Of a stretch of 64,000 nt of DNA, positions 39,610 to 50,669 are shown in pieces; position 1 is the stretch's first letter; each line of letters begins with the position of its first letter. A program made the translations under genes and the position numbers. The notes beneath the pieces were generated by a model. That model was given only the letters and a program-made list of their open reading frames with translations, was not told the origin of the DNA and did no database searches. The DNA is from Elusimicrobia bacterium GWB2_63_22 (lineage in GTDB: Bacteria > Elusimicrobiota > Elusimicrobia > Elusimicrobiales > UBA9959): positions 30,554 to 94,553 of the forward strand of contig MGUA01000001.1 of assembly GCA_001799735.1 (NCBI GenBank). The letters are read 5' to 3'.

Positions 39610-39635
39610 CCGCAGCGTTCCGCAGCCGCAAAATT

Positions 39636-39669
39636 AAAAGGCCGGTCTTCTCGCGAAGACCGGCCTTTT
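39636..39669. terminator. bidirectional rho-independent terminator; left copy of the island-flanking palindrome
   Basis: AAAAGGCCGGTCTTC-TCGC-GAAGACCGGCCTTTT, a 15-bp stem with A/T runs on both sides. Lies between the convergent genes ending at 39609 (+) and 39692 (-). Confidence 0.8.
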
Positions 39670-40530: not shown

Positions 40531-40809
40531 CTACTGCCCTTTTGTAAGGAAACATTTTCTCTGGACATAGCTCCCTAACACGCCCCCTCCCCATGGCAGC
40601 CCCACAACAAAGAGCGTAGATAGCATTTCCGAAGCGATATTAATTTTGTGCCATATCACCGCAAGCGCTAGCAGCCCGCCAATGATTACCCCGACAATCC
40701 CGCCTAATCTGTCCTTCACTCTTGTTTCAGAAGTATTCATAGAATTTCCCATTATTATGAGTTTTAAACTATTCCCGCTGGCTTTGTCAACCGATTCCCT
40801 TAAATTCAC
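40531..40809 (-). CDS. small membrane protein, hypothetical
   Basis: 92-aa ORF with two hydrophobic helices (GGIVGVIIGGLLALAVIW; MLSTLFVVGLPWGGGVL). AT-rich codons. Start uncertain. Confidence 0.3.
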   Translation of the reverse strand: MNLRESVDKASGNSLKLIIMGNSMNTSETRVKDRLGGIVGVIIGGLLALAVIWHKINIASEMLSTLFVVGLPWGGGVLGSYVQRKCFLTKGQ

Positions 40810-40832: not shown

Positions 40833-41546
40833 TTATCCGTGGGTGGGCTCACAGTCCGCACTCATCTCAAGGCAGATCGGGGTGGATGTGCAAACCGGGA
40901 CGACAGTGCACACCAAATTACAGACGGCGGCGCCTGCGCCGCAAACCCACTGCGGAGTGCCAGCGACATAGCTGGCTATATGGCATGTCACTTGGCCAGC
41001 GGTGCAGACAGTTTTGCAGTCGTTTTTATCCACGCAGGTCTGCGTCGTGCCCCATCTCACACAGCCGCAGCGGGATGACGCGGACTTGTCCGCGTTCCAA
41101 GGGAAATCATAGTCAGACCCTTCAGTTACGCTGATAAAATCCAACTTCTGCTCAGGGGTTCCCTCTTTGAGCAATCGCGCCGCGCTAGCGCTTATGACGA
41201 ACTTGCGATGGTTATTGGCATAGTTGATGGCATATCCGATGGTTTCGTCCATTGATGCGATTTCGGCGGGGCTGAAGACTCTCTGAGCCAAACCGCGGCG
41301 CATATTGGGAATACTCTTAAAATTAGAGTAGGCCTCTGTTTTCGCAGGAGCGACCACCTCGGGCTTTGGCTCCCCGCAGTTCAGAGCGCCGCTTTGGCGG
41401 GAATCCGGGCTTTTTACGGCTTCCATAAAATCCACCTGTTTAAAAGTGCCCTTATCGAAGTCAACATTGAATCCCTGCGCATTTAGGCCAGAGACCGTAC
41501 CGATTATTACCGTGACTATCGCTATTAGTATGTTTCGGTTTTTCAT
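40833..41546 (-). CDS. secreted protein with a Cys-rich C-terminal domain (12 Cys in the last 78 aa)
   Basis: 237 aa with a signal peptide (MKNRNILIAIVTVIIGTVSGLNA/QGF) and an AAGGA SD. C-terminus SSRCGCVRWGTTQTCVDKNDCKTVCTAGQVTCHIASYVAGTPQWVCGAGAAVCNLVCTVVPVCTSTPICLEMSADCEPTHG. Preceded by a sigma54-type promoter. Confidence 0.7.
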   Translation of the reverse strand: MKNRNILIAIVTVIIGTVSGLNAQGFNVDFDKGTFKQVDFMEAVKSPDSRQSGALNCGEPKPEVVAPAKTEAYSNFKSIPNMRRGLAQRVFSPAEIASMDETIGYAINYANNHRKFVISASAARLLKEGTPEQKLDFISVTEGSDYDFPWNADKSASSRCGCVRWGTTQTCVDKNDCKTVCTAGQVTCHIASYVAGTPQWVCGAGAAVCNLVCTVVPVCTSTPICLEMSADCEPTHG

Positions 41547-41627
41547 GAGATATTTCCTTAATCCGTCCTTCTATTCAAGATACCGCCGGAATTTCCCCCG
41601 CCGGTTTGCCCTACACCCTTGTACAAA

Positions 41628-41642
41628 GCAATTTTTATGCCA
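41628..41642 (-). promoter_or_regulatory. sigma54 (-24/-12) promoter for the Cys-rich protein gene
   Basis: Minus strand: TGGCATAAAAATTGC(T). GG and GC sit in the exact consensus register of TGGCAC-N5-TTGCW. About 80 nt upstream of the ATG at 41546 and divergent from the sigma54 activator gene. Confidence 0.7.
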
Positions 41643-41838
41643 AACACAGAGTATATGGGATAATTGCGCGGAGATATCTAATTTTCACGTCGTTATATGC
41701 GCCATTTTGGAAAGCTTTCCGCCTCTTGCGCAGGAACGAAAACAGCTCCCAGAAGGTACTAATATCAAACCACTTGGTCTGACATTAGGACGATGTCGCC
41801 CGGTTTTGCTACAATTCCTGGTATCTAACCGGGGGCTT

Positions 41839-43194
41839 ATGAGCAGACTGAATATCCTTGTAGTAGAAGACGACCCGCTCTCACGCGAGGTTATGGACAA
41901 CAATCTGGCGGGCCATGCCGTGGACTTCGCTTCTGATAAGGCTGCGGCAGAGCGCAAGCTAAAGGCCGGGCATTACGATATCTGCTTCTTGGACCTCCTC
42001 CTGGGAGATAATGATGATTACTCGGGTTTGAAGCTTATCCCGCTGGCGGTCTCTAAGGGGGTCTATTCCGTGGTAATGTCCAGTTGCGATACAGAAGAGA
42101 CCATAAGCCGCGCTTACGCGCTTGGCTGTAAGGAATTCTATGTAAAGGGCAACGAGCAGCAGAACTTGGCGGCCATCATAGCCAGATATATGCGCGATGA
42201 CGGAGGCAAGAAGGCTCAGCAAATCTTTTCAGGGGACTTCATCACCAACGACCCAGAGACCCGCTCGCTGGTGTCCGAGGCCCTGAAATACGCGGCCACG
42301 GAGTTGCCTCTGATGATATTGGGACCTTCCGGCACAGGTAAGACCACCCTGGCGCAACTACTGCACGGGCATTCAGGCCGCGCCGGAGATTTTGTAGCCA
42401 TAAACTGCGCGGCCTATACCGAAGATCTCCTGGAGTCCGAGTTGTTCGGCTATAAACGTGGCTCCTTCACAGGCGCGCATGAGAACCGCAAAGGTAAATT
42501 GGCACAGGCTGACAAAGGCACGCTATTCCTCGACGAGATAGGTGCCATGAGCCAGAACATGCAGGTAAAACTGCTCAAGGCCATAGAGGAGAAGTCCTTC
42601 TACCCCCTTGGCGCGGACAAGCCAGAGTATTCCAATTTTCGCGTGATAAGCGCCACTCTGGAGAACGTACAGAAACTGTTGGCAGAGGGAAAACTGCGCT
42701 TCGACTTCTTTCAGCGCGTGCACGGCATGACCATAGGGCTAAAACCGCTGGCTCAGCGGAAGTGCGACATTCTGCCGCTCATGCAGGCTTTTACAAAGGG
42801 CAAGAAGCGGCTGGCCTTCGAGCTGGCGGCGCGCGACCACCTGCTGGCCCACAATTGGCCGGGCAATACGCGGGAGCTGAAACGCTTTGTGGAACTTATA
42901 GGAGCCGGTACCCAGGGCGCGGTAACGCTGGAGACTGTGCGCCGCCACATCACTCCCGCCGCGGCGCCGCGCCAGGGGATCACGGAACCAGTAACGCAGG
43001 CGCAGTATGATTATGCGCTTGAACACGGGCTTTCCGCCGCCGTGGACCGTTTTACGGAAGGGCTTATTGCCCGCAATCTAAGCGAGAACGACGGCAAGAA
43101 AGCCGCCGCCCTCGCCCAGCTAAAAATATCGAAATGCCTTTTATATGCCGCGCTTGCCAAGGCGCGCAAGGCGGAGGAAAACCACAATGGCTGA
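41839..43194 (+). CDS. sigma54-dependent response regulator (NtrC family: REC + AAA+ + HTH)
   Basis: Start at the ATG at 41839 (MSRLNILVVEDDPLSREV..), 451 aa. REC with ..ICFLDLLLG... Walker A GPSGTGKT. Sigma54-contact loop ELFGYKRGSFTGA. Walker B TLFLDEIG. ..WPGNTRELKRFVE... C-terminal HTH-like AALAQLKISKCLLYAALAKA. Confidence 0.9.
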   Translation: MSRLNILVVEDDPLSREVMDNNLAGHAVDFASDKAAAERKLKAGHYDICFLDLLLGDNDDYSGLKLIPLAVSKGVYSVVMSSCDTEETISRAYALGCKEFYVKGNEQQNLAAIIARYMRDDGGKKAQQIFSGDFITNDPETRSLVSEALKYAATELPLMILGPSGTGKTTLAQLLHGHSGRAGDFVAINCAAYTEDLLESELFGYKRGSFTGAHENRKGKLAQADKGTLFLDEIGAMSQNMQVKLLKAIEEKSFYPLGADKPEYSNFRVISATLENVQKLLAEGKLRFDFFQRVHGMTIGLKPLAQRKCDILPLMQAFTKGKKRLAFELAARDHLLAHNWPGNTRELKRFVELIGAGTQGAVTLETVRRHITPAAAPRQGITEPVTQAQYDYALEHGLSAAVDRFTEGLIARNLSENDGKKAAALAQLKISKCLLYAALAKARKAEENHNG

Positions 43195-43369
43195 TGTAGA
43201 AAAGATTTACCACAACCTGAAGTCGCGGGCCGTGGGACTAAAGAGCGCCGCGGAACTGCTGCCCAACTGCGCCCCGGAAAAGCGCGATAAGGTTATAGCT
43301 CTCATGCGCGACGCCGCTAAGGAGATCGAGAGGCTGCTGACGGAACTGGAAGCCGGTCCCAGGCCCTAA
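43187..43369 (+). CDS. 60-aa stand-alone DHp/H-box-like mini-protein (hypothetical phosphotransfer or kinase-modulating protein)
   Basis: ATG at 43187 with a GGAGG SD 9 nt upstream; it overlaps the activator's 3' end by 8 nt. MADVEKIYHNLKSRAVGLKSAAELLPNCAPEKRDKVIALMRDAAKEIERLLTELEAGPRP. IYHNLKSRAVGL resembles an H-box (hxH[DN]hK[ST]P). Predicted helical hairpin. Confidence 0.5.
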   Translation: MADVEKIYHNLKSRAVGLKSAAELLPNCAPEKRDKVIALMRDAAKEIERLLTELEAGPRP

Positions 43370-45390
43370 GCCCAGGGCGGAGCTTTTGTAATTACCTTCA
43401 GCCAGGGCAGGTGCGCGAACTTTTCCGGCGGGTGGGCGGTGGCAAGGCAAATGTTGGTAAAGCCCTTCTCTTTTAGCTGAACGGCTATATCCTCGCCCTT
43501 CATGTTTTCCCCAAGGTCGGAATCAACATAGAGCGGGATGTCCTTGGGAAAAGTCCCCAAGGCCGAAAAGAATTCATCCGGTTTAGTAAACGCTCTCAGG
43601 CCAACGCCGTGCGCTTCTGCCGCCATCTCCCAAGTCATATGCGTCAGGGCATCATCGTCCAGCAGGACCGCCTGCGCCGGGGTTGTGGGCACGCTTATCG
43701 AAATCGGCACATATTCTGCCATTCCCTTTGCCATCAGCCGAACTTTCAAGCGGGCGCACTCTTCGATGACCCGTTTCTCCTCGCTGCGGCTCGTGACAAG
43801 AATGGTGCGGGCGCATAGCCCCAGCTCTTCTGCCAGGCTGAGCCCGGTTTCTTTATATCCTGAAAGCTCATAATCAAAAAGACAGACGGCGGCTTTCGCT
43901 TTCTCCAGTTCCGCCCTGGCCCAGGCGCGCAACGGCTCCGGCTCGCGGAAATATAATGTCTCAATGCTATGCGCTCCGAGGCGGGCGGCCTCAAAACGGT
44001 CGCGCCATAGCTGATGAATGCCTGTATCATCGTCCAGCACTATCGCCGGCCTGCCGGGAACGAGCTCGATTGCGGCCACAAAGCCGTCTGGCGCTTCCGC
44101 CCTTGGCAGTTTTATGGCTACGGTAGTGCCTTTGCCGGGAGTTGATGTTATTGTCAGGCTGCCGCCCCAGCTCTCTGCCGTGGTCTTGGCGTGGTACAAA
44201 CCGAGGCCGGAGCCGCCGGCTTTGCCGTGCGTCTCTCCGCGCTGTCCCAGCCGGGACAATATCTCCGGGGGGATGCCTTTGCCGCTATCCGTTATTGTCA
44301 GGACGATAAAATTATCTTCCGGTATCACCCTCACGTCCACTTTCCCCTTATCGCCCAGGGCCTCGGCAGCATTGTTTAGCAAGTTTGAAAGCATACGTCC
44401 GAATTCCACCGACTGCACCTTGGCGAACAGGCCATAGGACTGCCGCGAGAACTCAAAGTCGATAGTAATGCCAGGTTTTTCCCCATATTGCAGGCGCTTT
44501 TCGGTAATCACCGGCTCAATGAGACTTGAAAGCAAGCGGATTTCCATGGGGCTGGTGTTGCCTGCGGCCGGGGTACCGGTTTGTCGGCGGTTCTTTTCCA
44601 AGAGGCCGTTGGCCACGTCGCGGATGCGGTTGACGGCATGGCGCACTACGACGCGCTGCTGTTCGGGGAGCTGCTCCATGTTTTTAAGCGCGGCATCCAG
44701 GGCGAATACGGGCGAGCGGATATCATGCGCCACCTGGGCGGCCATACTTACCATCGCGTCTACGACAGATTTTTCCTGGATGAGTTGTATATGGGCCAGG
44801 TTTTTACGTCGGAGCTCGTCCATTTCATATATATCCAGCGCAACATCAGAGTTGAGGCCCTGACTTAAAGGGGTTAAGACTTCGGTTTTAAACCGTTTTT
44901 GCAACTTGGATATCGTGAGGACTACAGCTGAAAGCGTCACGACCATAATAACCATCAAAACCAAAAGTGGTTCAAAAGCCGTTAATGGCGATAAGACCAC
45001 AAGGAGATCCAAGCCTTGCACTCCTATCAGTTGTTTTCGTATAGACCACCTATGGAGATTCCCCGATGAAAGGCGGCAATACTCTAGCGGCCCAGGTGGG
45101 TATGAAATTTCGGCTGAAGAACCCGAGCATAATGCGACAAAGACCAGGTCTGGATTTCCCAGTGCCGATACAAAGGTGGACTCGATAAGTGATCTATTTG
45201 ATTGCTGGACACCCATACTTACAGTCGCCTGCATCTGCCCGATGCTTTCGAGTTGGCTCGTATATCGGTTATACGCGAAGTAGCTAAGGTATAAAGTCTG
45301 GGCGATAACCGTCAGGAACATCAGCCGGATTACAGGCTGCCTGGCGTGACAGTTAACCCAGGCTGACAGATTTGTCATAGTGCGCGCCAT
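43366..45390 (-). CDS. hybrid sensor histidine kinase (2 TM sensor + HisKA + HATPase + two receiver-like domains)
   Basis: 674 aa. H-box MAAQVAHDIRSPVFALDAALKNM. N box LSNLLNNAAEAL. G boxes DSGKGIP and GGSGLGLYHA. Two C-terminal REC-like segments (AIVLDDDTG..CLFDYELSG; AVLLDDDAL..LYVDSDLG). The kinase core is paralogous to 55962..57749. Confidence 0.85.
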   Translation of the reverse strand: MARTMTNLSAWVNCHARQPVIRLMFLTVIAQTLYLSYFAYNRYTSQLESIGQMQATVSMGVQQSNRSLIESTFVSALGNPDLVFVALCSGSSAEISYPPGPLEYCRLSSGNLHRWSIRKQLIGVQGLDLLVVLSPLTAFEPLLVLMVIMVVTLSAVVLTISKLQKRFKTEVLTPLSQGLNSDVALDIYEMDELRRKNLAHIQLIQEKSVVDAMVSMAAQVAHDIRSPVFALDAALKNMEQLPEQQRVVVRHAVNRIRDVANGLLEKNRRQTGTPAAGNTSPMEIRLLSSLIEPVITEKRLQYGEKPGITIDFEFSRQSYGLFAKVQSVEFGRMLSNLLNNAAEALGDKGKVDVRVIPEDNFIVLTITDSGKGIPPEILSRLGQRGETHGKAGGSGLGLYHAKTTAESWGGSLTITSTPGKGTTVAIKLPRAEAPDGFVAAIELVPGRPAIVLDDDTGIHQLWRDRFEAARLGAHSIETLYFREPEPLRAWARAELEKAKAAVCLFDYELSGYKETGLSLAEELGLCARTILVTSRSEEKRVIEECARLKVRLMAKGMAEYVPISISVPTTPAQAVLLDDDALTHMTWEMAAEAHGVGLRAFTKPDEFFSALGTFPKDIPLYVDSDLGENMKGEDIAVQLKEKGFTNICLATAHPPEKFAHLPWLKVITKAPPWA

Positions 45391-45411
45391 CTAACCTCTG
45401 AAGAGATAAAG

Positions 45412-45434
45412 CCCGGCCGGAGAAGCCGGCCGGG
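45412..45434 (-). terminator. stem-loop between the SBP and HK genes (terminator or attenuator)
   Basis: CCCGGCCGG-AGAAG-CCGGCCGGG. On the minus strand it is followed by CTTTATCTCTTC. Confidence 0.45.
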
Positions 45435-45439
45435 AGCAA

Positions 45440-46993
45440 TTACCGCGGTGTAAAATCCAGGATACTTAAGTTATGCCGGCCGAGGAAGGAGTCCCTTAGA
45501 TGGAGCCGGTCGGCATTATAGGCCACCCGTCTGTTGAGATATCCGAGGTGGACGTATGGGATATCTTTCAGGATATCCCTGGAAACGGCTTCGTAATGCG
45601 ATCCCAATTTTGCCAGGTCCAGCAGCTCCCGCCCGGTTTCCATGCCGTCGCAGACGGCTTTCCGCTCTGTTATCGGAGAGAATATCGCACCATGCCGGCC
45701 GAGCAGATGATAAAGCCCATCCGGATCTCCATCGGATACGGAAGCTCCCATAGGCATAATATCGGGGGTGAATTTTTTGTAGTACATTTCCCAGAAGTCT
45801 TTGGCCGAAAAATCAAACCTCGTGGTATCGGCCAGCTTAACGCCGTTTTTACGCAATACCTCCGCAAGCCATTCCCAGCCAAGGGGTCCCGCTGCCAGGA
45901 ACAGCGGGGTTTTCTCCGTAGCTTTAATAAACAGCCCTATATGCCGCTCGCCGTCGCGGATAGCCGCCTGCACTTCCGTATCGGGAATGCGCCCGGACTG
46001 GAATTGGAGGAAACTTTGAGGGTCGCTTTCAAATCCGCGCGCGTTGAACGCCTCTTTTGCCTGCCCTATATTTTTCCAGACCAGCGCCTGGAACGCCGAG
46101 CGGTTTCTGGGATTTGAGAACAGGCGCCCCTGCAACCCGTTAAGATTGATTATTAAATGCATGCCTTCCTGGCCGGAAGAACATTTTATGGGGGCGAGCT
46201 TGCCTTCATCACACCCCGGCATCAACGCCATTTCCGCTATCAGATAAGCGTCTATTTCTTTGGACTGCAATTTATTTAGGGCAATCTTCGACGGGATATT
46301 GAGAATTTTTACATGTTTCAGGCCGGGTGCTTTCCCCGCGTAGTACGGGTTCGGCACAAGAGTCAGTACCTGGTCGGTCTCCGTAATTACATACGGCCCT
46401 GTTCCGATTGGGATGTCCCCAACCATTTTATATACGGAAAAGCGGCCGCCCGTGAACCGTTGTAGTGTGCGACGGACGGGTTTTTCGAACTCCAGCTCCA
46501 GCGTATCACCGGAGAGGACCCGGACTCCGGAGATTTCACCTGTGGCTTTAAAATCGTGATATCCTTTCAGATTGGATAAGCCGTCAGCCAGAGAGCTGTT
46601 GCTCGATTTAGCTTCTAGGCGTAGCCCGTCTTCCCAAGATCTCTTGAAATCCCCTGCCTGAAGATATGAGCCGTCCGAGAAGCGGAGGTCGGTGTTTATC
46701 TTAAAGCGCAGGATGCGCCTGTCCTGGCTCAACTCCCAGGACTTGGCTGCCGCGGGGGCTATCAGCCCTTTGTCTTCGGTCTTAACAAGTGCATTGAATT
46801 GGTATGCGATGACGGCGTCACCGATAAGGGTATGCTGCAAAGGCGGGACTATGGTGCCCCAATAACTGGGAACGCCGACAGTGTATATAGTTTCGGACAT
46901 AGCTGAATGTTTCCTCCATAGGATAATGATGGAACACAAAAAGAAAACCCCCGCTATTAGCAGGGGGAACGACCATTTCCTGCTGGAAGTCAT
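45440..46993 (-). CDS. membrane-anchored family-5 (peptide/nickel type) solute-binding protein, orphan (no permease/ATPase genes nearby)
   Basis: 517 aa with an N-terminal signal anchor (KWSFPLLIAGVFFLCSIIILW). Body typical of SBP_bac_5 (..LVKTEDKGLIAPAAAKSWELSQDRRILRFKINTDLRFSDGSYLQAGDFKRSWE.., ..GTGPYVITE..). No ABC transporter genes within the block. Confidence 0.7.
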   Translation of the reverse strand: MTSSRKWSFPLLIAGVFFLCSIIILWRKHSAMSETIYTVGVPSYWGTIVPPLQHTLIGDAVIAYQFNALVKTEDKGLIAPAAAKSWELSQDRRILRFKINTDLRFSDGSYLQAGDFKRSWEDGLRLEAKSSNSSLADGLSNLKGYHDFKATGEISGVRVLSGDTLELEFEKPVRRTLQRFTGGRFSVYKMVGDIPIGTGPYVITETDQVLTLVPNPYYAGKAPGLKHVKILNIPSKIALNKLQSKEIDAYLIAEMALMPGCDEGKLAPIKCSSGQEGMHLIINLNGLQGRLFSNPRNRSAFQALVWKNIGQAKEAFNARGFESDPQSFLQFQSGRIPDTEVQAAIRDGERHIGLFIKATEKTPLFLAAGPLGWEWLAEVLRKNGVKLADTTRFDFSAKDFWEMYYKKFTPDIMPMGASVSDGDPDGLYHLLGRHGAIFSPITERKAVCDGMETGRELLDLAKLGSHYEAVSRDILKDIPYVHLGYLNRRVAYNADRLHLRDSFLGRHNLSILDFTPR

Positions 46994-47073
46994 AGGTCAG
47001 GAGGGTTACAGATTATGCGGCTGTCAGGTTGTAATATACGGGACCTTTAACCGGCTGATAGGGGATAAAGCGT

Positions 47074-47256
47074 TCACTGTCCCCGCTTGGGACCGTGAAT
47101 GCCGCTGTCGATAGCGGATTCCGCCAATACCTCATCGGCGGCGTTGCCCGCTCTGATTTGAGCGCTGCTTAGCGCAGACTGGGCGGCAAAAGAAACCGAT
47201 GCCAGCGGTATCATTGCCAGCAGCAGCAAACAGCACTTCTTGGTCAGGTTGATCAT
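47074..47256 (-). CDS. 60-aa secreted peptide (candidate signal or RiPP-like precursor)
   Basis: AGGGGAA SD 6-7 nt upstream of the ATG at 47256, 31 nt downstream of the rSAM gene. MINLTKKCCLLLLAMIPLASVSFA/AQSALSSAQIRAGNAADEVLAESAIDSGIHGPKRGQ. Confidence 0.55.
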   Translation of the reverse strand: MINLTKKCCLLLLAMIPLASVSFAAQSALSSAQIRAGNAADEVLAESAIDSGIHGPKRGQ

Positions 47257-47287
47257 AATCGTTCCCCTATTTCAGAGTATACTAAAT

Positions 47288-48313
47288 TCACAACCAGCAG
47301 CCGGGGTCTTTTTTTAGAAAACTCCCGTATGAGACAAAAGACGCATTGCGGTCTCCTCCACATCGATCGTAAAACATACAGGAACCACAGCCTTCTATCG
47401 CCCCGGCCCGCAAAGCCTTCATTATTGGGTGGTTGAGAAACAGATTCTCCAGGCCCTGTTCAAGGATATTGCCGAGCTTAAAGTCCGCCCGGCTCGTTAC
47501 CTTCAGGTTCCCATGACAGTCGATGATCAATCCTTGGAAACCAGCTTTCCCGTGCGCTCCCAGCTCCGGAGACAGAAGGATGAATAGCGGCAGGTTGGTT
47601 GCCGTGGGAATTGAAGTTTTACGAGAAAGAGCCAGTATCTCCTGGTAGGCCGCCCGCAATTCTAAAGCGGTAAGAGCGGAATCCTCCCCAGTCTCCTGCA
47701 GCGCTTTGCCTTTGCCTTGCGGCACGAACCTGGTAAAATTCATTGCTGCCGCGCCGGCATCGGCAGCCGTATTAAAAAACTCCGGTATCCATGCGGCCGT
47801 ATTTTTAGACAGCACCGCCTGTAACTGCACAGCCACGCCGGAATTATTAAGCGATTGGATACCTTTCACTGCCCTTTCAAAATTACCTGCCCCCCTGATA
47901 ACGTCATGCCGCACGGCATCCGGGCCGTCCACGGAGATTTGGGTAATGACGTCATACCGCTTCATCGCTGATACAACAGCAGCAGAGAGGCTGGTCCCAT
48001 TGGTCAAAACGGTGATGCCTACGCCGGGCCATCTTGAGCTTAATTCCTCTAAGATAGGAAGAAACAGCAGGCTCAATGTGGGTTCTCCTCCACTTATTCC
48101 AAAATGCGGCTTTAGATACAATCTATCTGCTAACTCCGAGTATTGGTCCAGAATTCTGCGCCAATCTGAAAGCGATAGGATTTCTTCAGCCGCCCCATGC
48201 GGTTGATAGCAGTGGGTGCAATTGAGATTGCAGGCATTGGTGATATCGAGCTGGGCGCTGAGGAACTTTTGACTCCCGGTGAATTTTAGTAAGTTTTTGA
48301 TGAGCCAGTTCAT
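47288..48313 (-). CDS. radical SAM enzyme with a C-terminal SPASM/twitch-type auxiliary cluster domain
   Basis: Start moved to the ATG at 48313 (MNWLIKNLL..), 341 aa. CxxxCxxC motif DITNACNLNCTHCY. GGEPT SAM-binding motif. C-terminal IIDCHGNL..GCGSCMFYDRCGG..DPGCW cysteine cluster. Confidence 0.85.
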   Translation of the reverse strand: MNWLIKNLLKFTGSQKFLSAQLDITNACNLNCTHCYQPHGAAEEILSLSDWRRILDQYSELADRLYLKPHFGISGGEPTLSLLFLPILEELSSRWPGVGITVLTNGTSLSAAVVSAMKRYDVITQISVDGPDAVRHDVIRGAGNFERAVKGIQSLNNSGVAVQLQAVLSKNTAAWIPEFFNTAADAGAAAMNFTRFVPQGKGKALQETGEDSALTALELRAAYQEILALSRKTSIPTATNLPLFILLSPELGAHGKAGFQGLIIDCHGNLKVTSRADFKLGNILEQGLENLFLNHPIMKALRAGAIEGCGSCMFYDRCGGDRNASFVSYGSFLKKDPGCWL

Positions 48314-48320
48314 TTTGATA

Positions 48321-48359
48321 CCGATAAAAAAAGAGAAAGCGATGTATATTGTCGCTTTC
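48321..48359 (-). terminator. canonical intrinsic terminator 8 nt upstream of the rSAM start codon (terminator of upstream genes and/or attenuator)
   Basis: Minus strand: GAAAGCGA-CAATATACA-TCGCTTTC followed by TCTTTTTTTATCGG, then TATCAAA-ATG (48313). Confidence 0.75.
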
Positions 48360-48530
48360 CCTGGATACACCGGATTAAGGTCCGGTCGTGGATGCCCGGG
48401 GGCCAATTCCCCCGATTACAAGGAAACTACAAATAGAGTCTAGCTGACAGAGGTTGCGGGCGGAAGGGCCTTTAGGCCTACGCGGAACTGGGCCCTCAAT
48501 TTCCGGATCAGGCAGGCAAAGCCAGGACTT

Positions 48531-48887
48531 TTAGAAACGCAGATATTTTCTAAAGGGCGCGACAAACCACTCATTAGGGAAGAACGGCGACCCCTCAACT
48601 TTCTTATCTGCAAGAGATGAAATGTGCCGTTCAATATCCTCCCCAAACAAAAAACCGGCTTCCTCTGCTAATGGGAACCAATCCTCCTCTGTCATTGGAG
48701 GATTTGCGGTGTCATGCTGAGAAAGATAAATCTGTTTCAGACGGGTGTAAAAGCTAAACCTTCTATCAAATAGCGCATTTTGCCTTTCCCGCTCTGTTGT
48801 CCACCATTGCAACCCGGCAAAGACAAGACCGACAACGGCAACGACAGGGGCCAAGCAGGCAGACAGCAAAGCAATATAGTCATTCAT
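48531..48887 (-). CDS. membrane-anchored hypothetical protein
   Basis: 118 aa with an N-terminal TM (IALLSACLAPVVAVVGLVFAGL) and a cytoplasmic tail. No family recognised. Confidence 0.5.
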   Translation of the reverse strand: MNDYIALLSACLAPVVAVVGLVFAGLQWWTTERERQNALFDRRFSFYTRLKQIYLSQHDTANPPMTEEDWFPLAEEAGFLFGEDIERHISSLADKKVEGSPFFPNEWFVAPFRKYLRF

Positions 48888-48919
48888 GCGGACGCTCCCA
48901 TATTAAAACCCGGATTTGT

Positions 48920-49510
48920 TCAAGACCCTGAAGACGCGAACTCCTTAACATAAACAAGACCCAGTCCGACGAACAAAAGCATTAGGCAGAGCATAAAGAC
49001 ATCGCCAAGGCCAAACGTTGAAGATATCGTGGCGCTCGGATCAATTACCCTAGCGAACTTTGGGTTAGACGGAAGATATCTTATCGGGAACCTGGTGCCT
49101 ACAGGATACTGCTTATCTAAATCCAATTTCGTAGAGTAGACCTCATACGTGAGTGTGTGGGTATCATGAAACCGGACTCGCCCCCTTCGTCCGCTAGTTA
49201 CAGTTCTTTCATAACCGGCCACAACGGCAACCGACTTAATCCCCTGCGCATACAACTCATAGTCGTATTTTATCGTTGTATACCATAAAAACGCCATCAC
49301 ACCTGCCAGGACCAGAAAAAATCCCGCTTTAATCAACACCGCGCTATCTCGTCCCTTATCCATCAGAATATTGTCGGTCACGATATATATCGCCACTATA
49401 CCGGCGAGAACAATACAGACTAGAAGCTCTACGCCGATGACATTCTTAAGATAGAGCAAGACCGAAAGGCCCAATGCGGCAATAAAACCCAAAAGCAATT
49501 TTACCTTCAT
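48920..49510 (-). CDS. DUF3592-like membrane protein
   Basis: Start moved to the ATG at 49510 (AGGGGA SD), 196 aa. Several TM helices flank a soluble beta-rich insert (VAGYERTVTSGRRGRVRFHDTHTLTYEVYSTKLDLDKQYPVGTRFPIRYLPSNP), as in DUF3592 proteins (recalled from memory). Confidence 0.55.
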   Translation of the reverse strand: MKVKLLLGFIAALGLSVLLYLKNVIGVELLVCIVLAGIVAIYIVTDNILMDKGRDSAVLIKAGFFLVLAGVMAFLWYTTIKYDYELYAQGIKSVAVVAGYERTVTSGRRGRVRFHDTHTLTYEVYSTKLDLDKQYPVGTRFPIRYLPSNPKFARVIDPSATISSTFGLGDVFMLCLMLLFVGLGLVYVKEFASSGS

Positions 49511-49626
49511 AATTTTTATTCCCCTAAACCTTAGAAAGCATTCTATCAAGAGCGAAATCAGCACCGACTTCAAAGCCCAGCAAAGCCATCGCCGGGAGGA
49601 CTCCCTCGGCATCCTGAGCGACAGAG

Positions 49627-49845
49627 CTAGAAGAAGTCTTTCAAATCGGTCTTGTATACCTTCAATATCTGCTTAAGCTCCACCACATCCACACGTCTTT
49701 CCCTGCGTTCTATTTTGGAGACATAAGACTGAGGCTTTTTAAGTTTCTGCGCAGCCTGAACCTGAGTTATCCCGGCCTCCAGTCTCACTTTTTTAAGTTT
49801 CGCAATAAACGCCTCATATTCTTTAGAGTATATTGATTCGCCCAT
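49627..49845 (-). CDS. XRE-family helix-turn-helix transcriptional regulator (72 aa)
   Basis: ATG at 49845. ..LKKVRLEAGITQVQAAQKLKKPQSYVSKIERRERRVDVVELKQILKVY.. is a canonical HTH_3/XRE motif. The ATG lies 6 nt after a TATACT box, so the mRNA is probably leaderless. Confidence 0.85.
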   Translation of the reverse strand: MGESIYSKEYEAFIAKLKKVRLEAGITQVQAAQKLKKPQSYVSKIERRERRVDVVELKQILKVYKTDLKDFF

Positions 49846-49893
49846 GAAAACAGTATATAACCTATTTAAGGATAGCCCAAGATAGGTTATAAT
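49846..49893. promoter_or_regulatory. divergent promoter/operator region of the XRE gene
   Basis: TATACT (49857->49852, minus). A 10-bp perfect inverted repeat, TATAACCTAT (49856-49865) and ATAGGTTATA (49882-49891), with a 16-nt spacer. TATAAT on the plus strand at 49888-49893, facing the unassigned GC-rich segment. Confidence 0.6.
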
Positions 49894-50271
49894 ATATACA
49901 GGGCAGAAGGAAAGAAGAGTCAGACAACAGCAAAGATTGATGGGCGGGGGCGATAATTTTCTTTTTTGTACGGACGCCGAAGGCGGATCGGGGGGTGGAG
50001 CGCAGCGACACCGCAGTGCGGCCGTGCCAAGGCCCACGTTTATTGGGCCGGCCGGCCGCGCAGAGGAGGTTGTTGTAAGATGCAGAACTCCTTGGGAGCA
50101 GGTGCAAGGCGCGCTAGTGCCGCCGCCCTGCGAACCCTCTAACGTGCGGCGAGGAGCAGTGCGGGGCCGCGTAGTGGCCACGCCTGCGACGGCATCTCGC
50201 GGATAGGGAACTCCTTATTCGATTCCCTCCGGATGTTCGTCGAAGAAGCGTCTAACATCGACCAACAGCCC

Positions 50272-50323
50272 CCACCATTTAAACGGCCGGTCTTCTTGCG
50301 AAGACCGGCCGTTTAAATGGTGG
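50272..50323. terminator. long palindromic terminator at the ssrA 3' end; right copy of the island-flanking palindrome
   Basis: CCACCATTTAAACGGCCGGTCTTC-TTGC-GAAGACCGGCCGTTTAAATGGTGG, with a 24-bp potential stem. The right arm includes the CCA end of the tmRNA. Confidence 0.75.
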
Positions 50324-50669
50324 AGGTGCCGGGAGTTGCACCCGGGTCCGTAAACCGCTTGCAGGAACCGCTACAGGCTTAGCCCTGAGTTTGTCTCGGA
50401 CGGCATAAGTTCAAGGCGACAATGCCGGCCCAGCTCCGTGTTGTCTTAAGCCGACGCGGGACGAAGCGCGCCCCCGGCGACAGCAGCCTGAATTTAACGC
50501 AGTACAGTCCGCTCAGGCGGGCAGACTATAAGCGAGGCACACTTAGGCGTGCGCCCAGGCCAGCTCGTTGGAGTTGGCTTTTGTTTTTTTGACCCTGTTT
50601 TACATGGCCTGGTCAACCATGACCTGCTGATCCTGCAGAACAAGTTCACGTCGAACCTAGTTCACCCCC
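50318..50669 (-). ncRNA. ssrA: tmRNA (ssrA), about 352 nt
   Basis: Minus strand 5' end: GGGGGTGAACTAGGTTCGACG (50669->). The 3' end is GGACCCGGGTGCAACTCCCGGCACCTCCACCA (->50318), comprising a T-arm and acceptor. The acceptor pairs GGGGGUG with CACCUCC and includes the G3:U wobble. An A-rich stretch precedes the tag frame GCC AAC TCC AAC GAG CTG GCC TGG GCG CAC GCC TAA (50578->50543), which encodes ANSNELAWAHA. Confidence 0.9.

What the first reader, a model, noticed from the sequence alone, without database searches (positions are those of the whole stretch)
40833..48359. Island-borne candidate peptide-signalling circuit: rSAM/SPASM enzyme, secreted 60-aa peptide, orphan SBP, hybrid HK, DHp mini-protein, sigma54 activator and a sigma54-driven Cys-rich output
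Within 7.5 kb of lower-GC DNA the minus strand encodes, in order:
- a radical SAM enzyme with a SPASM/twitch-type Cys cluster (48313->47288);
- a 60-aa peptide with a Sec-type signal sequence, 31 nt downstream (47256->47074);
- a membrane-anchored family-5 solute-binding protein with no ABC permease or ATPase genes anywhere nearby (46993->45440);
- a hybrid histidine kinase with a periplasmic loop and two receiver-like domains (45390->43366).

Convergent with these are an NtrC-type sigma54 activator with an intact receiver (41839..43194) and an overlapping 60-aa H-box-like mini-protein (43187..43369). Divergent from the activator, behind a textbook -24/-12 promoter, lies a secreted protein with 12 Cys in its last 78 residues (41546->40833).

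The gene logic reads like a self-contained sense-and-respond module: modified or secreted peptide, then SBP co-receptor, then HK and a possible phosphorelay, then the sigma54 EBP, then the Cys-rich effector. Alternatively the rSAM enzyme may cross-link the Cys-rich domain, as in ranthipeptide or sactipeptide chemistry. I know of no described system with this composition. Every functional link here is inference from adjacency.
Basis: inference. Interest (0 to 1): 0.85.

Follow-up and report, generated by a model that had tools for sequence, protein, structure and literature searches.

The report
Deoxyguanosine-gated peptide-signalling cassette driving Cys-rich cargo

Summary
In 17 of 17 orthologous loci with enough flank (Elusimicrobia, Bdellovibrionota), the rSAM gene has the orphan family-5 SBP and the histidine kinase beside it. 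None of 94 outgroup rSAM loci has an SBP. A small secreted ORF follows the rSAM gene wherever that interval was read.

New findings:
1. A full-length 2'-dG-II riboswitch (RF03165, 85 bits) lies directly upstream of the rSAM gene. Its terminator overlaps P1, so it reads as an ON switch. It recurs in 10 of 13 Elusimicrobia-type modules. This class was known only from 12 unassignable metagenomic fragments.
2. The promoter TGGCATAAAAATTGCT recurs nearly unchanged in eight other genomes. It precedes Cys-rich secreted proteins with small membrane partners, Rce1/CPBP proteases, or (L171) a Cys-rich RiPP cluster with its own rSAM maturase.
3. The HK tail holds two divergent receiver domains, and the 60-aa mini-protein is DHp-like.
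4. A 36-nt repeat bounds a 10.6-kb island beside the tmRNA gene.

Best model: 2'-dG gates a peptide-pheromone-like phosphorelay (LuxPQ-LuxU-LuxO logic) that drives bacteriocin-like cargo. The biochemical links remain inferred. The idea that this rSAM cross-links the Cys-rich protein is disfavoured.

The parts
39634..39669 (.). Left copy of the 36-nt direct repeat (a hairpin); proposed left border of the island
   Evidence: 92% identical to 50279-50314. The GC trough starts here.
40531..40809 (-). Small 2-TM membrane protein ('orf92'), co-transcribed partner of the Cys-rich protein. The true start is probably an internal ATG near 40740-40752.
   Evidence: Clustered with homologues that directly follow Cys-rich genes in L161, L162 and L165 (two copies). 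A 65-aa TM ORF occupies the same position in L172/L173.
40833..41546 (-). Secreted Cys-rich output protein: signal peptide, a [VI]xFDG motif, a helical core and a C-terminal domain with 12 Cys
   Evidence: 6 invariant Cys across 19 family members. Only 30 representatives among 1.84 billion proteins. No Pfam, NCBIfam or PDB fold match.
41627..41642 (-). Sigma54 -24/-12 promoter TGGCATAAAAATTGCT driving the Cys-rich protein and orf92
   Evidence: Identical or 1-2 nt variant sites precede the cargo genes in L001, L161, L163, L165, L168, L170 (four sites), L171 and L172/L173.
41839..43194 (+). NtrC-type sigma54 enhancer-binding protein (REC, AAA+ with a GSFTGA loop, C-terminal HTH-like tail)
   Evidence: Clustered in 10 loci, with further Pfam-annotated copies in L167 and L171.
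43187..43369 (+). 60-aa DHp-like mini-protein with an invariant His (H-[ND]-[LIV]-[KR]-[SG]); overlaps the EBP stop codon
   Evidence: Seven homologues, six of which were aligned, always at the EBP 3' end. hhalign to the HK DHp gives 78.8%, E=1.6e-5. pN/pS 0.19-0.46.
43366..45390 (-). Hybrid sensor histidine kinase: 2 TM helices with a ~85-aa periplasmic loop, DHp (AHDIRSP), HATPase_c and two divergent REC-like modules (444-566 and 570-674)
45440..46993 (-). Membrane-anchored orphan family-5 solute-binding protein, the presumed co-receptor of the HK
   Evidence: Present in 17 of 17 ingroup loci and 0 of 94 outgroup loci. No ABC ATPase in the window.
47074..47256 (-). 60-aa secreted precursor: signal-like N-terminus ...P[LI]xxV[SA]FA|A, then the conserved core [QKR]S[AS]Lxx[AEN]Q[IL][RN]xGxAxD and a variable tail
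   Evidence: A small ORF with this N-terminus follows the rSAM gene in every locus read. pN/pS 0.12-0.17.
47288..48313 (-). Radical SAM enzyme of the SPASM/twitch type: CX3CX2C plus one auxiliary-cluster Cys set (C309, C312, C318, C339); no RRE domain
48326..48361 (-). Intrinsic terminator (GGGAAAGCGA...TCGCTTTCTC plus a T-run). Its 5' arm is the 3' strand of riboswitch P1, which makes it the expression platform of an ON switch.
   Evidence: The same design occurs in 7 of the 9 loci analysed, and a similar hairpin plus T-run follows the L171 aptamer.
48356..48426 (-). 2'-dG-II purine-riboswitch aptamer
   Evidence: Rfam RF03165: 85.4 bits (gathering score 60), model positions 1-71 of 71. 12 of 21 pairs show compensatory changes across 9 loci.
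48437..48496 (-). Conserved sigma70-like promoter (TTCCGC-N17-TAGACT) preceded by repeated AGGCCC motifs
   Evidence: Read from the sequences. Conserved in L001, L161, L167, L168 and L171. Function inferred.
48531..50181 (-). Island cargo not conserved with the cassette: a 118-aa ORF, a DUF3592-like membrane protein and an XRE-type HTH protein
   Evidence: Absent from the other loci.
50279..50314 (.). Right copy of the 36-nt repeat; the hairpin directly after the tmRNA 3' end
50318..50669 (-). tmRNA gene (ssrA), the probable island integration site

Best explanation
This is a portable regulatory cassette that works as a nucleoside-gated peptide-signal phosphorelay.

1. Input. A sigma70-like promoter transcribes a leader that carries a 2'-dG-II riboswitch. 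Without ligand, a terminator forms that uses the 3' strand of P1. With 2'-deoxyguanosine bound, P1 holds that strand and transcription reads through into rSAM-peptide-SBP-HK. This is shown from structure and conservation. Ligand identity follows from family membership.

2. Signal. The cytoplasmic SPASM/twitch radical SAM enzyme modifies the adjacent small precursor before the precursor is exported by Sec, as anSME does for sulfatases. This step is inferred.

3. Sensing. In the periplasm the matured peptide is bound by the membrane-anchored orphan family-5 SBP, which modulates the hybrid histidine kinase. This step is inferred, by analogy with LuxP-LuxQ, CBP-ChiS and ChvE-VirA.

4. Relay. Phosphate passes from the HK His to the HK receiver module(s), then to the DHp-like 60-aa mini-protein His, then to the receiver of the sigma54 activator. 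The domain identities are shown. The order of transfer is inferred.

5. Output. The activator switches on a conserved sigma54 promoter, TGGCATAAAAATTGCT. That promoter drives variable Cys-rich secreted cargo: here the 237-aa Cys-rich protein with its small membrane partner, and elsewhere Rce1/CPBP proteases or a Cys-rich RiPP cluster. The promoter-cargo association is shown by conservation. Dependence on this activator is inferred.

The cargo most resembles bacteriocin-plus-immunity sets. The whole would then link DNA-breakdown signals and a self-made peptide to antagonistic or protective secreted products.
For: - Co-occurrence: SBP and HK lie next to the rSAM gene in 17 of 17 ingroup loci, 16 of them in strict rSAM-SBP-HK order. 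Among 94 outgroup rSAM loci there are 0 SBP, 4 HK and 2 EBP (maps).
- Small ORF: one with the same signal-like N-terminus follows the rSAM gene in every locus read, and it is under purifying selection.
- rSAM class: the nearest solved relatives are peptide- or protein-modifying SPASM/twitch enzymes. By sequence, SkfB 1.7e-22 and anSME 3e-17. By structure, Foldseek TM 0.63-0.74 to SkfB, SuiB, anSME, PqqE and CteB.
- Paralogous modules put another peptide-modifying enzyme class in the same slot: YcaO at 37 bits against a cut-off of 25.7, followed by SBP-HK in L165.
- Riboswitch: 85 bits over the full model, with covariation in 12 of 21 pairs. The terminator overlaps P1 in 7 of 9 loci. It is present in 10 of 13 Elusimicrobia-type modules, with a degenerate copy in an eleventh.
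- Relay parts: REC-like modules at 95% and 84.5%; DHp-like mini-protein at 79% with its His aligned.
- Output: near-identical sigma54 promoters precede Cys-rich proteins, CPBP proteases and, in L171, four Cys-rich precursors plus a 464-aa rSAM/SPASM maturase and an HExxH protease.
- In L002 and L003 a sigma54 promoter precedes the EBP-first operon, which fits autoinduction.
- The SBP is orphan: no ABC ATPase signature in 64 kb.
Against: - No experiment links any two parts.
- The mature peptide has no Cys, Trp or Tyr, so no known SPASM cross-link chemistry is obvious.
- The enzyme lacks an RRE domain and keeps only one auxiliary Cys set.
- The region conserved across both phyla in the small ORF is mainly the signal-like N-terminus, which could be generic signal-peptide architecture.
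- A Sec-exported peptide would stay in the periplasm of a diderm cell unless it crosses the outer membrane, so cell-to-cell signalling is unproven.
- No UAS common to all the sigma54 promoters was found.
- Autoregulation was seen in only 2 of 4 EBP-first loci.
- The cargo function is unknown: no fold match.
- Two Elusimicrobia-type modules (L163 and the first module of L166) lack the riboswitch.
Confidence: 0.45

Rival explanations
1. The SBP-HK-EBP unit senses an external ligand, such as environmental oligopeptides, muropeptides or metal chelates, as other family-5 SBPs do. The small secreted protein is only a periplasmic accessory (an adaptor, inhibitor or chaperone of the SBP/HK), and the rSAM enzyme matures it or another envelope protein. 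In this reading there is no self-produced signal.
For: The nearest solved SBP relatives bind peptides, murein tripeptide or nickel chelates. The small ORFs of Bdellovibrionota-type loci are 73-130 aa and highly variable, more like small proteins than pheromones. Precedents exist for SBP-controlled hybrid kinases that sense nutrients, for example CBP-ChiS (PMC12704726). The peptide would remain periplasmic after Sec export.
Against: The strict enzyme-small ORF-SBP-HK order, and the swap of rSAM for YcaO in a paralogous module, are typical of modified-peptide systems. The post-signal core is strongly conserved within Elusimicrobia. A sigma54 promoter precedes the whole operon in L002 and L003, which fits autoinduction.
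Confidence: 0.25
2. The radical SAM enzyme acts on a small molecule rather than a peptide. That molecule could be 2'-deoxyguanosine or a derivative, because ON riboswitches often control enzymes that consume their ligand. The product would be the signal sensed by the SBP-HK pair.
For: The riboswitch is an ON switch placed directly before the rSAM gene. Nucleotide-acting rSAM enzymes (MoaA, viperin, BlsE) appear among the structural and sequence neighbours. The enzyme has no RRE and only one auxiliary cluster.
Against: The top neighbours are peptide or protein modifiers. The Bdellovibrionota versions keep the enzyme without any riboswitch. A small ORF always lies between the enzyme and the SBP. 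Family-5 SBPs are not known nucleoside binders (my own knowledge).
Confidence: 0.08
3. One reading: the cassette rSAM enzyme cross-links the Cys-rich C-terminal domain of the 237-aa protein, with sacti- or ranthipeptide-like thioether chemistry.
For: The Cys-rich domain has a conserved Cys pattern. SPASM enzymes make thioethers. In L171 Cys-rich peptides are indeed rSAM substrates.
Against: No homologue of the Cys-rich protein was found in any Bdellovibrionota-type locus that has the rSAM. Its position relative to the rSAM gene varies. In L171 the Cys-rich precursors have their own 464-aa PapB/geopeptide-like maturase in addition to the cassette rSAM. The protein carries a Sec signal, so periplasmic disulfides are the simpler explanation for the Cys pattern.
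Confidence: 0.05
4. The genes are neighbours by accident of island assembly and do not form one functional unit.
For: The segment is a low-GC island with unrelated cargo: GNAT, DUF3592 and an XRE-type protein.
Against: Synteny is kept across two phyla at 40-65% protein identity, with a clean outgroup control. The promoter and riboswitch are conserved.
Confidence: 0.02

Closest known systems
Vibrio LuxP-LuxQ / LuxU / LuxO quorum-sensing phosphorelay
   Same: A periplasmic solute-binding protein acts as co-receptor of a hybrid histidine kinase. A small His-containing phosphotransfer protein follows, then a REC-AAA+ sigma54 activator that drives sigma54 promoters. The window EBP scores 165 bits against the LuxO model.
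   Different: LuxP is not a family-5 SBP and binds AI-2, not a peptide. LuxU is an Hpt domain, whereas the mini-protein here is DHp-like with no Hpt match. The LuxO cut-off of 800 bits is not met. The outputs here are secreted Cys-rich products, not sRNAs. A riboswitch gates the sensor operon.
ComQXPA (Bacillus) and Agr (Staphylococcus) modified-peptide pheromone operons; three-component regulation of class II bacteriocins (inducing peptide, HK, RR)
   Same: The operon logic is modifying enzyme, precursor, sensor kinase, then regulator. The outputs include bacteriocin-like peptides with immunity-type membrane proteins or CPBP proteases. Autoinduction is likely in some loci.
   Different: There is no sequence homology. 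The hosts are diderm phyla. The modifier is a radical SAM enzyme. Export is apparently by Sec. The peptide is sensed through an SBP co-receptor rather than directly by a polytopic HK. The regulator is a sigma54 EBP.
2'-dG-II riboswitch class (Rfam RF03165; Weinberg et al. 2017; structure in PMC6847200)
   Same: Full-length match above the gathering score. It has the G-C junction-proximal P1 pair, a C at the U51-equivalent position and a 5-nt J3/1.
   Different: The published members were 12 metagenomic fragments with no phylum assignment. [quoted passage not shown] Here the host is Elusimicrobia and the controlled operon is rSAM-peptide-SBP-HK.
SPASM/twitch radical SAM peptide and protein modifiers (SkfB, anSME, SuiB, PqqE, MftC)
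   Same: CX3CX2C core, a C-terminal auxiliary Fe-S Cys motif, an adjacent small substrate-like ORF, and best structural and sequence matches to these enzymes. Like anSME it lacks an RRE, and its presumed substrate carries a Sec signal.
   Different: It is below every curated NCBIfam cut-off. Only 4 conserved C-terminal Cys are present, against 7-8 in a full SPASM domain. The substrate has no Cys, Trp, Tyr or sulfatase motif, so the chemistry is unknown.
CBP-ChiS (Vibrio) and ChvE-VirA (Agrobacterium) SBP-controlled hybrid kinases
   Same: A periplasmic binding protein controls a hybrid sensor kinase. CBP-ChiS is documented in PMC12704726. That CBP belongs to SBP family 5 is my own knowledge.
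   Different: Those SBPs bind nutrients and also serve ABC transporters. Here the SBP is membrane-anchored, has no transporter nearby and is encoded next to a peptide-maturation pair.

Membership tests
2'-dG-II riboswitch (RF03165) | Covariance-model score at or above the Rfam gathering score, over the full three-stem junction | tested here: met
   85.4 bits against a gathering score of 60, model positions 1-71 of 71. It wins the clan competition over the general purine family.
2'-dG-II riboswitch (RF03165) | Base pairs supported by covariation | tested here: met
   12 of 21 pairs have compensatory changes. 94.7% of cells are paired, against at most 62% for the slid controls.
2'-dG-II riboswitch (RF03165) | Class-specific core per PMC6847200: U22/C51/C74 equivalents, a G-C junction-proximal P1 pair and a 2-nt insertion in J3/1 | tested here: met
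   Read from alignment A2. G8-C64 is invariant, J2/3 is ..AUCCACG with the C conserved, and J3/1 is 5 nt ending in C. U9 is present in 8 of the 9 aligned sequences; L161 has A.
2'-dG-II riboswitch (RF03165) | Selective binding of 2'-deoxyguanosine | not testable with these tools
   Needs in-line probing or ITC.
Radical SAM / SPASM RiPP maturase | CX3CX2C radical SAM cluster motif | tested here: met
   C28, C32 and C35 are invariant in 24 sequences. Pfam Radical_SAM 71 bits.
Radical SAM / SPASM RiPP maturase | Full 7-8 Cys SPASM motif with two auxiliary clusters | tested here: not met
   Only C309, C312, C318 and C339 are invariant. This fits a single auxiliary cluster, that is, a twitch-like or partial SPASM domain.
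Radical SAM / SPASM RiPP maturase | RRE/PqqD-like leader-recognition domain, fused or encoded nearby | tested here: not met
   The rSAM core starts at about residue 17-24, with no extra domain in the model. No PqqD hit was found in the cassette.
Radical SAM / SPASM RiPP maturase | Adjacent precursor peptide that the enzyme modifies | tested here: inconclusive
   The adjacent small ORF is universal. Modification itself cannot be tested here.
Radical SAM / SPASM RiPP maturase | Membership of a curated NCBIfam maturase family | tested here: not met
   The best hits are 103-108 bits, against cut-offs of 265-500.
LuxPQ-LuxU-LuxO type phosphorelay | Hybrid HK carrying a receiver domain | tested here: met
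   hhalign gives 95.3% and 84.5% to the EBP receivers, with the DD/D/T-S/K positions aligned.
LuxPQ-LuxU-LuxO type phosphorelay | Hpt-domain phosphotransfer protein | tested here: not met
   No Hpt hit in Pfam at E<=10 or in a PDB profile search. The mini-protein is DHp-like instead.
LuxPQ-LuxU-LuxO type phosphorelay | REC-AAA+ sigma54 activator equivalent to LuxO | tested here: not met
   The architecture is met, but the LuxO equivalog scores 165 bits against a cut-off of 800.
SBP family 5 ABC-transporter receptor (Opp/Dpp/Nik) | SBP_bac_5 domain | tested here: met
   110 bits against a cut-off of 32.
SBP family 5 ABC-transporter receptor (Opp/Dpp/Nik) | Encoded with cognate permease and ATPase genes, or an equivalog of a named transporter SBP | tested here: not met
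   No ABC ATPase signature in 64 kb. No transporter genes lie next to the cassette in the Pfam-annotated related loci. NCBIfam equivalogs score 26-50 bits against cut-offs of 393-1098.
tmRNA-targeted genomic island | Insertion next to the ssrA 3' end, flanked by direct repeats, with deviant composition | tested here: met
   The 36-nt repeat at 92% identity, one copy directly after the tmRNA gene, and the GC trough.
tmRNA-targeted genomic island | Integrase gene inside the island | tested here: not met
   No integrase domain among the island ORFs scanned.

The most novel reading that the evidence does not exclude
This is a previously undescribed class of cell-cell (or kin or damage) signalling system in diderm bacteria. 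A radical-SAM-matured, Sec-exported peptide pheromone is read by an orphan SBP, a hybrid HK, a free-standing DHp mini-protein and a sigma54 EBP, and the relay turns on interchangeable Cys-rich RiPP or bacteriocin cargo. In Elusimicrobia the whole sensor is licensed by intracellular 2'-deoxyguanosine. That would give the rare 2'-dG-II riboswitch class its first physiological role: coupling DNA breakdown to antagonism.
Probability: 0.3. Interest if true: 0.9.

Novelty: new variant of a known kind. Interest (0 to 1): 0.8.

Why it matters
1. It gives a host phylum (Elusimicrobia) and a complete, recurrent gene context for the 2'-dG-II riboswitch class. That class was previously known only from a dozen unassignable metagenomic fragments, and its biology is unexplained.

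2. It defines a conserved, uncurated radical SAM clade with an obligate small secreted partner, an orphan SBP and a kinase. It is a tractable candidate for a modified-peptide signalling system in Gram-negative-type phyla, where such systems are barely known.

3. The near-invariant sigma54 promoter marks a regulon of novel Cys-rich secreted proteins and RiPPs. That is useful for natural-product mining and as a ready-made reporter.

4. The free-standing 60-aa DHp-like protein would be an unusually minimal phosphorelay component.

Each link can be tested directly with standard assays.

Tried and rejected
- Hpt identity for the mini-protein. The HxxK(S/G) motif suggested it, but Pfam at E<=10 and a PDB profile search gave nothing. 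The DHp comparison fitted better.
- Fold assignment of the Cys-rich protein. The AF2 model was only partly confident (pLDDT 67) and Foldseek against the PDB found nothing with E<0.8.
- The metagenome scan with the rSAM alignment was swamped by AhbD/NirJ-like paralogues and gave only 3 orthologous loci.
- The word-indexed searches for the Cys-rich protein and for the peptide found almost only themselves.
- No single upstream activator sequence common to all the conserved sigma54 promoters was found. There were only subgroup-specific palindromes.
- No canonical sigma54 site lies upstream of the riboswitch. The GGCAC...CGCA element there has the wrong spacing, so it was read as part of a sigma70-like promoter (my own reading of the sequences).
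- A sulfatase-type (C/S)x(P/A)xR motif in the peptide: absent.
- Plasmid-borne copies of the rSAM gene: none.
- The primary paper for 2'-dG-II (Weinberg et al. 2017) is not held. Its gene associations are cited second-hand from PMC8872408 and PMC5473149.
- Literature searches for the cassette returned nothing relevant.

Full report
**Observation.** Pfam and NCBIfam confirm most domain calls:
- a radical SAM enzyme whose best matches are SPASM families, all far below their curated cut-offs;
- an SBP_bac_5 protein;
- a kinase with a weak HisKA hit and a clear HATPase_c hit;
- a REC plus Sigma54_activat activator.

The two 60-aa ORFs and the Cys-rich protein match no family. GC drops to 0.45-0.57 between 40 and 50 kb, against about 0.62 in the flanks. 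The sigma54 site TGGCATAAAAATTGCT at 41642..41627(-) is the only match with <=1 mismatch in the window. It lies 81 nt upstream of the Cys-rich start codon. No ABC ATPase signature exists anywhere in the 64 kb.

Rfam finds a full-length 2'-dG-II purine riboswitch aptamer (RF03165, 85.4 bits, gathering score 60) at 48356-48426(-). It ends 42 nt upstream of the rSAM ATG at 48313. Rfam also finds a tmRNA gene at 50318-50669(-).

The aptamer is followed by a hairpin, GGGAAAGCGA...TCGCTTTCTC, and a T-run. The 5' arm of that hairpin is the 3' strand of P1. Ligand-stabilised P1 should therefore prevent termination, which makes this an ON switch.

A 36-nt direct repeat (92% identical) has one copy directly after the tmRNA 3' end (50279-50314) and one at 39634-39669. 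Together they bracket exactly the low-GC 10.6 kb. No integrase lies inside.

The identical database proteins P0121 and P0122 carry NCBI names from Elusimicrobia bacterium GWB2_63_22. The host is therefore an Elusimicrobium. The same name is attached to a 61%-identical rSAM paralogue, P0035, so the genome probably has at least two cassettes.

**Co-occurrence.** The rSAM enzyme has more than 100 full-length relatives at 47-87% identity. Those that carry a name are from Elusimicrobia or Bdellovibrionales MAGs; most carry no name. I fetched 13 orthologous genome loci, 3 metagenome loci and 11 exact-protein loci.
- SBP and HK homologues lie beside the rSAM gene in 17 of 17 loci with enough flank, 16 of them in strict rSAM-SBP-HK order.
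- Among 94 loci of the distant AhbD/NirJ-like paralogues, none has an SBP, 4 have an HK and 2 have an EBP.
- A small ORF follows the rSAM gene in every locus read.
- Across both phyla this ORF shares a signal-peptide-like N-terminus: K/R, a hydrophobic run, then P[LI]xx[VI][SA][FY]A|A.
- Within Elusimicrobia the next ~18 residues are also conserved ([QKR]S[AS]Lxx[AEN]Q[IL][RN]xGxAxD), and the tail varies.
- Close homologues show pN/pS of 0.12-0.17.

Two architectures exist. Elusimicrobia-type loci have riboswitch-rSAM-peptide-SBP-HK, with the EBP and mini-protein convergent or nearby. Bdellovibrionota-type loci have no riboswitch, and four of them (L002, L003, L004, L007) have an EBP gene directly upstream on the same strand.

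**Riboswitch association.** The aptamer precedes the cassette in the window and in L001, L013, L161, L167, L168, L169, L170 and L171. It also precedes the second module of L166. That is 10 of 13 distinct Elusimicrobia-type modules. L165 has degenerate copies, and L163 and the first module of L166 have none.

Across nine loci, 12 of 21 pairs show compensatory changes and 94.7% of cells pair, against at most 62% in the slid controls. The P1-overlapping terminator is present in 7 of the 9 loci analysed.

The literature reports that this class was known from 12 metagenomic sequences that could not be assigned to a phylum (PMC5473149). [quoted passage not shown] The structural hallmarks described in PMC6847200 are present here. 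I found no paper that connects the class with a radical SAM or kinase operon.

**The relay.** Pfam does not detect receivers in the HK tail. Profile comparison with the cassette EBP receivers does:
- Module 1 (residues 444-566) gives 95.3%, E=2e-8.
- Module 2 (residues 570-674) gives 84.5%, E=7e-6.
- The acidic pair, the acceptor Asp, the Thr/Ser and the Lys are all aligned.
- Many orthologues keep only module 2.

The mini-protein has seven homologues, always at the 3' end of the EBP gene, and six of them were aligned. I first suspected an Hpt domain, but nothing supported that. hhalign instead places its invariant His on the HK phospho-acceptor His across both helices (78.8%, E=1.6e-5). The control against REC gives 0.05%.

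**The enzyme.** AlphaFold with 24 homologues gives pLDDT 83.6. The best PDB matches by sequence profile and by Foldseek are SkfB, SuiB, anSME, BlsE, PqqE, CteB, TigE and ChlB. These are mostly peptide or protein modifiers. Only four C-terminal Cys are invariant, which fits one auxiliary cluster. There is no RRE.

anSME is a useful analogue, because it modifies unfolded Sec substrates before export (my own knowledge). A paralogous module in L165 has a YcaO-domain enzyme (37 bits, cut-off 25.7) in the enzyme slot ahead of SBP-HK. Two unrelated peptide-modifying enzyme classes in one slot supports a modified-peptide function.

**The output.** The promoter TGGCATAAAAATTGCT, spacer included, recurs identically or with 1-2 changes. 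It precedes:
- Cys-rich homologues in L001, L161, L163, L165 and L172/L173;
- a related 290-aa protein in L168;
- four operons in L170, which encode small membrane proteins, Rce1/CPBP proteases and Cys-rich proteins;
- four small ORFs in L171.

The secreted cargo proteins share a signal peptide and a [VI]xFDG motif. Each Cys-rich protein seen to its 3' end, except the one in L170, is followed by a small two-TM protein, here 40531-40809(-).

The L171 ORFs are four precursors with a common leader and Cys-rich cores. They are followed by a TPR protein, a 464-aa rSAM/SPASM enzyme whose best matches are geopeptide, TIGR04463 and PapB-ranthipeptide maturases, and an HExxH intramembrane protease of RiPP type.

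The regulatory cassette is therefore portable and drives variable Cys-rich secreted cargo that looks like bacteriocin-plus-immunity sets. The Cys-rich family is rare, with 30 representatives in 1.84 billion, and its fold matches nothing solved.

The cargo is variable, no Cys-rich homologue was found in the Bdellovibrionota loci, and in L171 the cargo brings its own maturase.

**Mechanism and rivals.** The best-supported chain has these steps:
1. 2'-dG acts through the riboswitch as an ON switch.
2. The sensor operon is expressed.
3. The rSAM enzyme matures the precursor.
4. The precursor is exported by Sec.
5. The SBP binds the peptide and modulates the hybrid HK.
6. Phosphate passes through the receiver module(s) and the DHp mini-protein to the EBP.
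7. The conserved sigma54 promoters switch on the cargo.

What is shown: the parts, their conservation, the switch design and the promoter-cargo link. What is inferred: the substrate of the enzyme, the ligand of the SBP, the order of phosphotransfer and the cargo function.

In L002 and L003 a good sigma54 promoter with upstream palindromes precedes the EBP-first operon. This fits autoinduction, but L004 and L007 lack it.

The main rival is that the SBP senses an external ligand and the small protein is an accessory. I give it 0.25. Weaker rivals are a small-molecule substrate for the rSAM enzyme (0.08) and cross-linking of the Cys-rich protein (0.05).

**Comparison and novelty.** Functionally the relay resembles LuxPQ-LuxU-LuxO, and the operon logic resembles ComQXPA, Agr or three-component bacteriocin regulation. 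It is a member of none of these. The SBP family differs from LuxP, there is no Hpt, no equivalog cut-off is met and there is no homology to Com or Agr. It is a true member of the 2'-dG-II riboswitch class.

I rate it a new variant of a known kind: a modified-peptide plus phosphorelay circuit with unusual parts (rSAM, Sec export, an orphan family-5 SBP, a free DHp mini-protein, sigma54) and a riboswitch gate.

Interest is high for three reasons. It gives the first host and coherent biology for a rare riboswitch class. It defines an uncurated, widespread rSAM-peptide-sensor family in poorly studied phyla. And every link can be tested by simple experiments.

Noticed in passing
window 39634-39669 and 50279-50314; tmRNA 50318-50669(-): A 36-nt hairpin-forming direct repeat (92% identical) brackets the 10.6-kb low-GC segment. 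One copy is the hairpin right after the tmRNA 3' end. This looks like an ssrA-targeted island, but no integrase is inside.
   Followed up: partly
L165:1765-1835 and L165:9881-9951: Two near-identical degenerate 2'-dG-II-like aptamers (37-39 bits, below the gathering score). J2/3 is changed to UAUCUAUG and there are broken pairs in P2 and P3. One precedes the rSAM gene, and the other lies downstream of a sigma54 promoter ahead of a 204-aa secreted protein. They could be decaying copies or a variant with altered specificity.
   Followed up: partly
L167:8762-9814 and L169:8594-9661: ~350-aa proteins that contain only the sigma54 DNA-binding domain (Sigma54_DBD, 57 bits in L167), with no detectable core-binding or activator-interacting regions. 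They sit between the EBP and the riboswitch. They might compete for -24/-12 sites.
   Followed up: no
window 48437-48496(-); same position in L001, L161, L167, L168, L171: A conserved sigma70-like promoter (TT[CA]CGC-N17-TA[AG]ACT) ends about 8 nt before the aptamer. It is preceded by repeated AGGCCC motifs (GGGCCCA-N9-TAGGCCCAAAGGCMCTT), possibly an operator for an unknown regulator.
   Followed up: partly
L165:3688-8022(-); L166:13023-17654(-); L167:14563-17561(+): Paralogous sensor modules lie beside the main cassette: small ORF-YcaO-SBP-HK in L165, riboswitch-peptide-SBP-rSAM-HK in L166, and SBP-HK in L167. These genomes appear to keep several such channels.
   Followed up: partly
L171:8221-12669: A sigma54-driven RiPP cluster: four precursors (61-79 aa) with the leader MNxSHI[IV]KxLN..LTL..A.DRMEFEALP and Cys-rich cores, a TPR protein, a 464-aa rSAM/SPASM enzyme (geopeptide/TIGR04463/PapB-like, below cut-offs) and an HExxH membrane protease. 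No curated family matches the precursors.
   Followed up: partly
L167:4058-6987, L170:927-3919; L168:17686-18381, L170:10827-11477 and 13853-14587: Pairs of M16 peptidases lie next to the cassette in two loci. Rce1/CPBP intramembrane proteases lie within the sigma54-driven cargo regions in two loci.
   Followed up: no
L169:1-6831; L002:10498-13994; L007:2487-6027: Type IV secretion or conjugation genes (TraC/VirB4, VirB8, TrbC) lie within 10 kb of the cassette in L169, and genes clustering with them lie near the cassette in L002 and L007. This hints that the cassette travels on conjugative elements. No copy was found in the plasmid collection.
   Followed up: partly
precursor N-termini: window 47233-47238(-) and homologues: A Cys at the boundary of the n- and h-regions of the signal-like segment (K-x-C-[CL]-L-L) is conserved in most Elusimicrobia-type precursors, but in none of the Bdellovibrionota ones. 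That is unusual for a generic Sec signal peptide and is unexplained.
   Followed up: no
L161:1887 (and L162): In these aptamers the J1/2 position equivalent to ligand-contacting U22 is A instead of U, although the score (76.7 bits) is still above the gathering score.
   Followed up: no
window 41446-43194(+) and 47288-48406(-): The longest-ORF calls are artefacts. The EBP starts at 41839 (MSRLNILVV), not 41446. The rSAM gene starts at ATG 48313, because the TTG at 48406 would lie inside the riboswitch aptamer.
   Followed up: yes
L171:615-971: A stand-alone receiver-domain protein is encoded just upstream of the riboswitch. This may relate to the 'signal receiver domain' listed in the literature for this riboswitch class, although here it lies upstream of the aptamer and is not controlled by it.
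   Followed up: no
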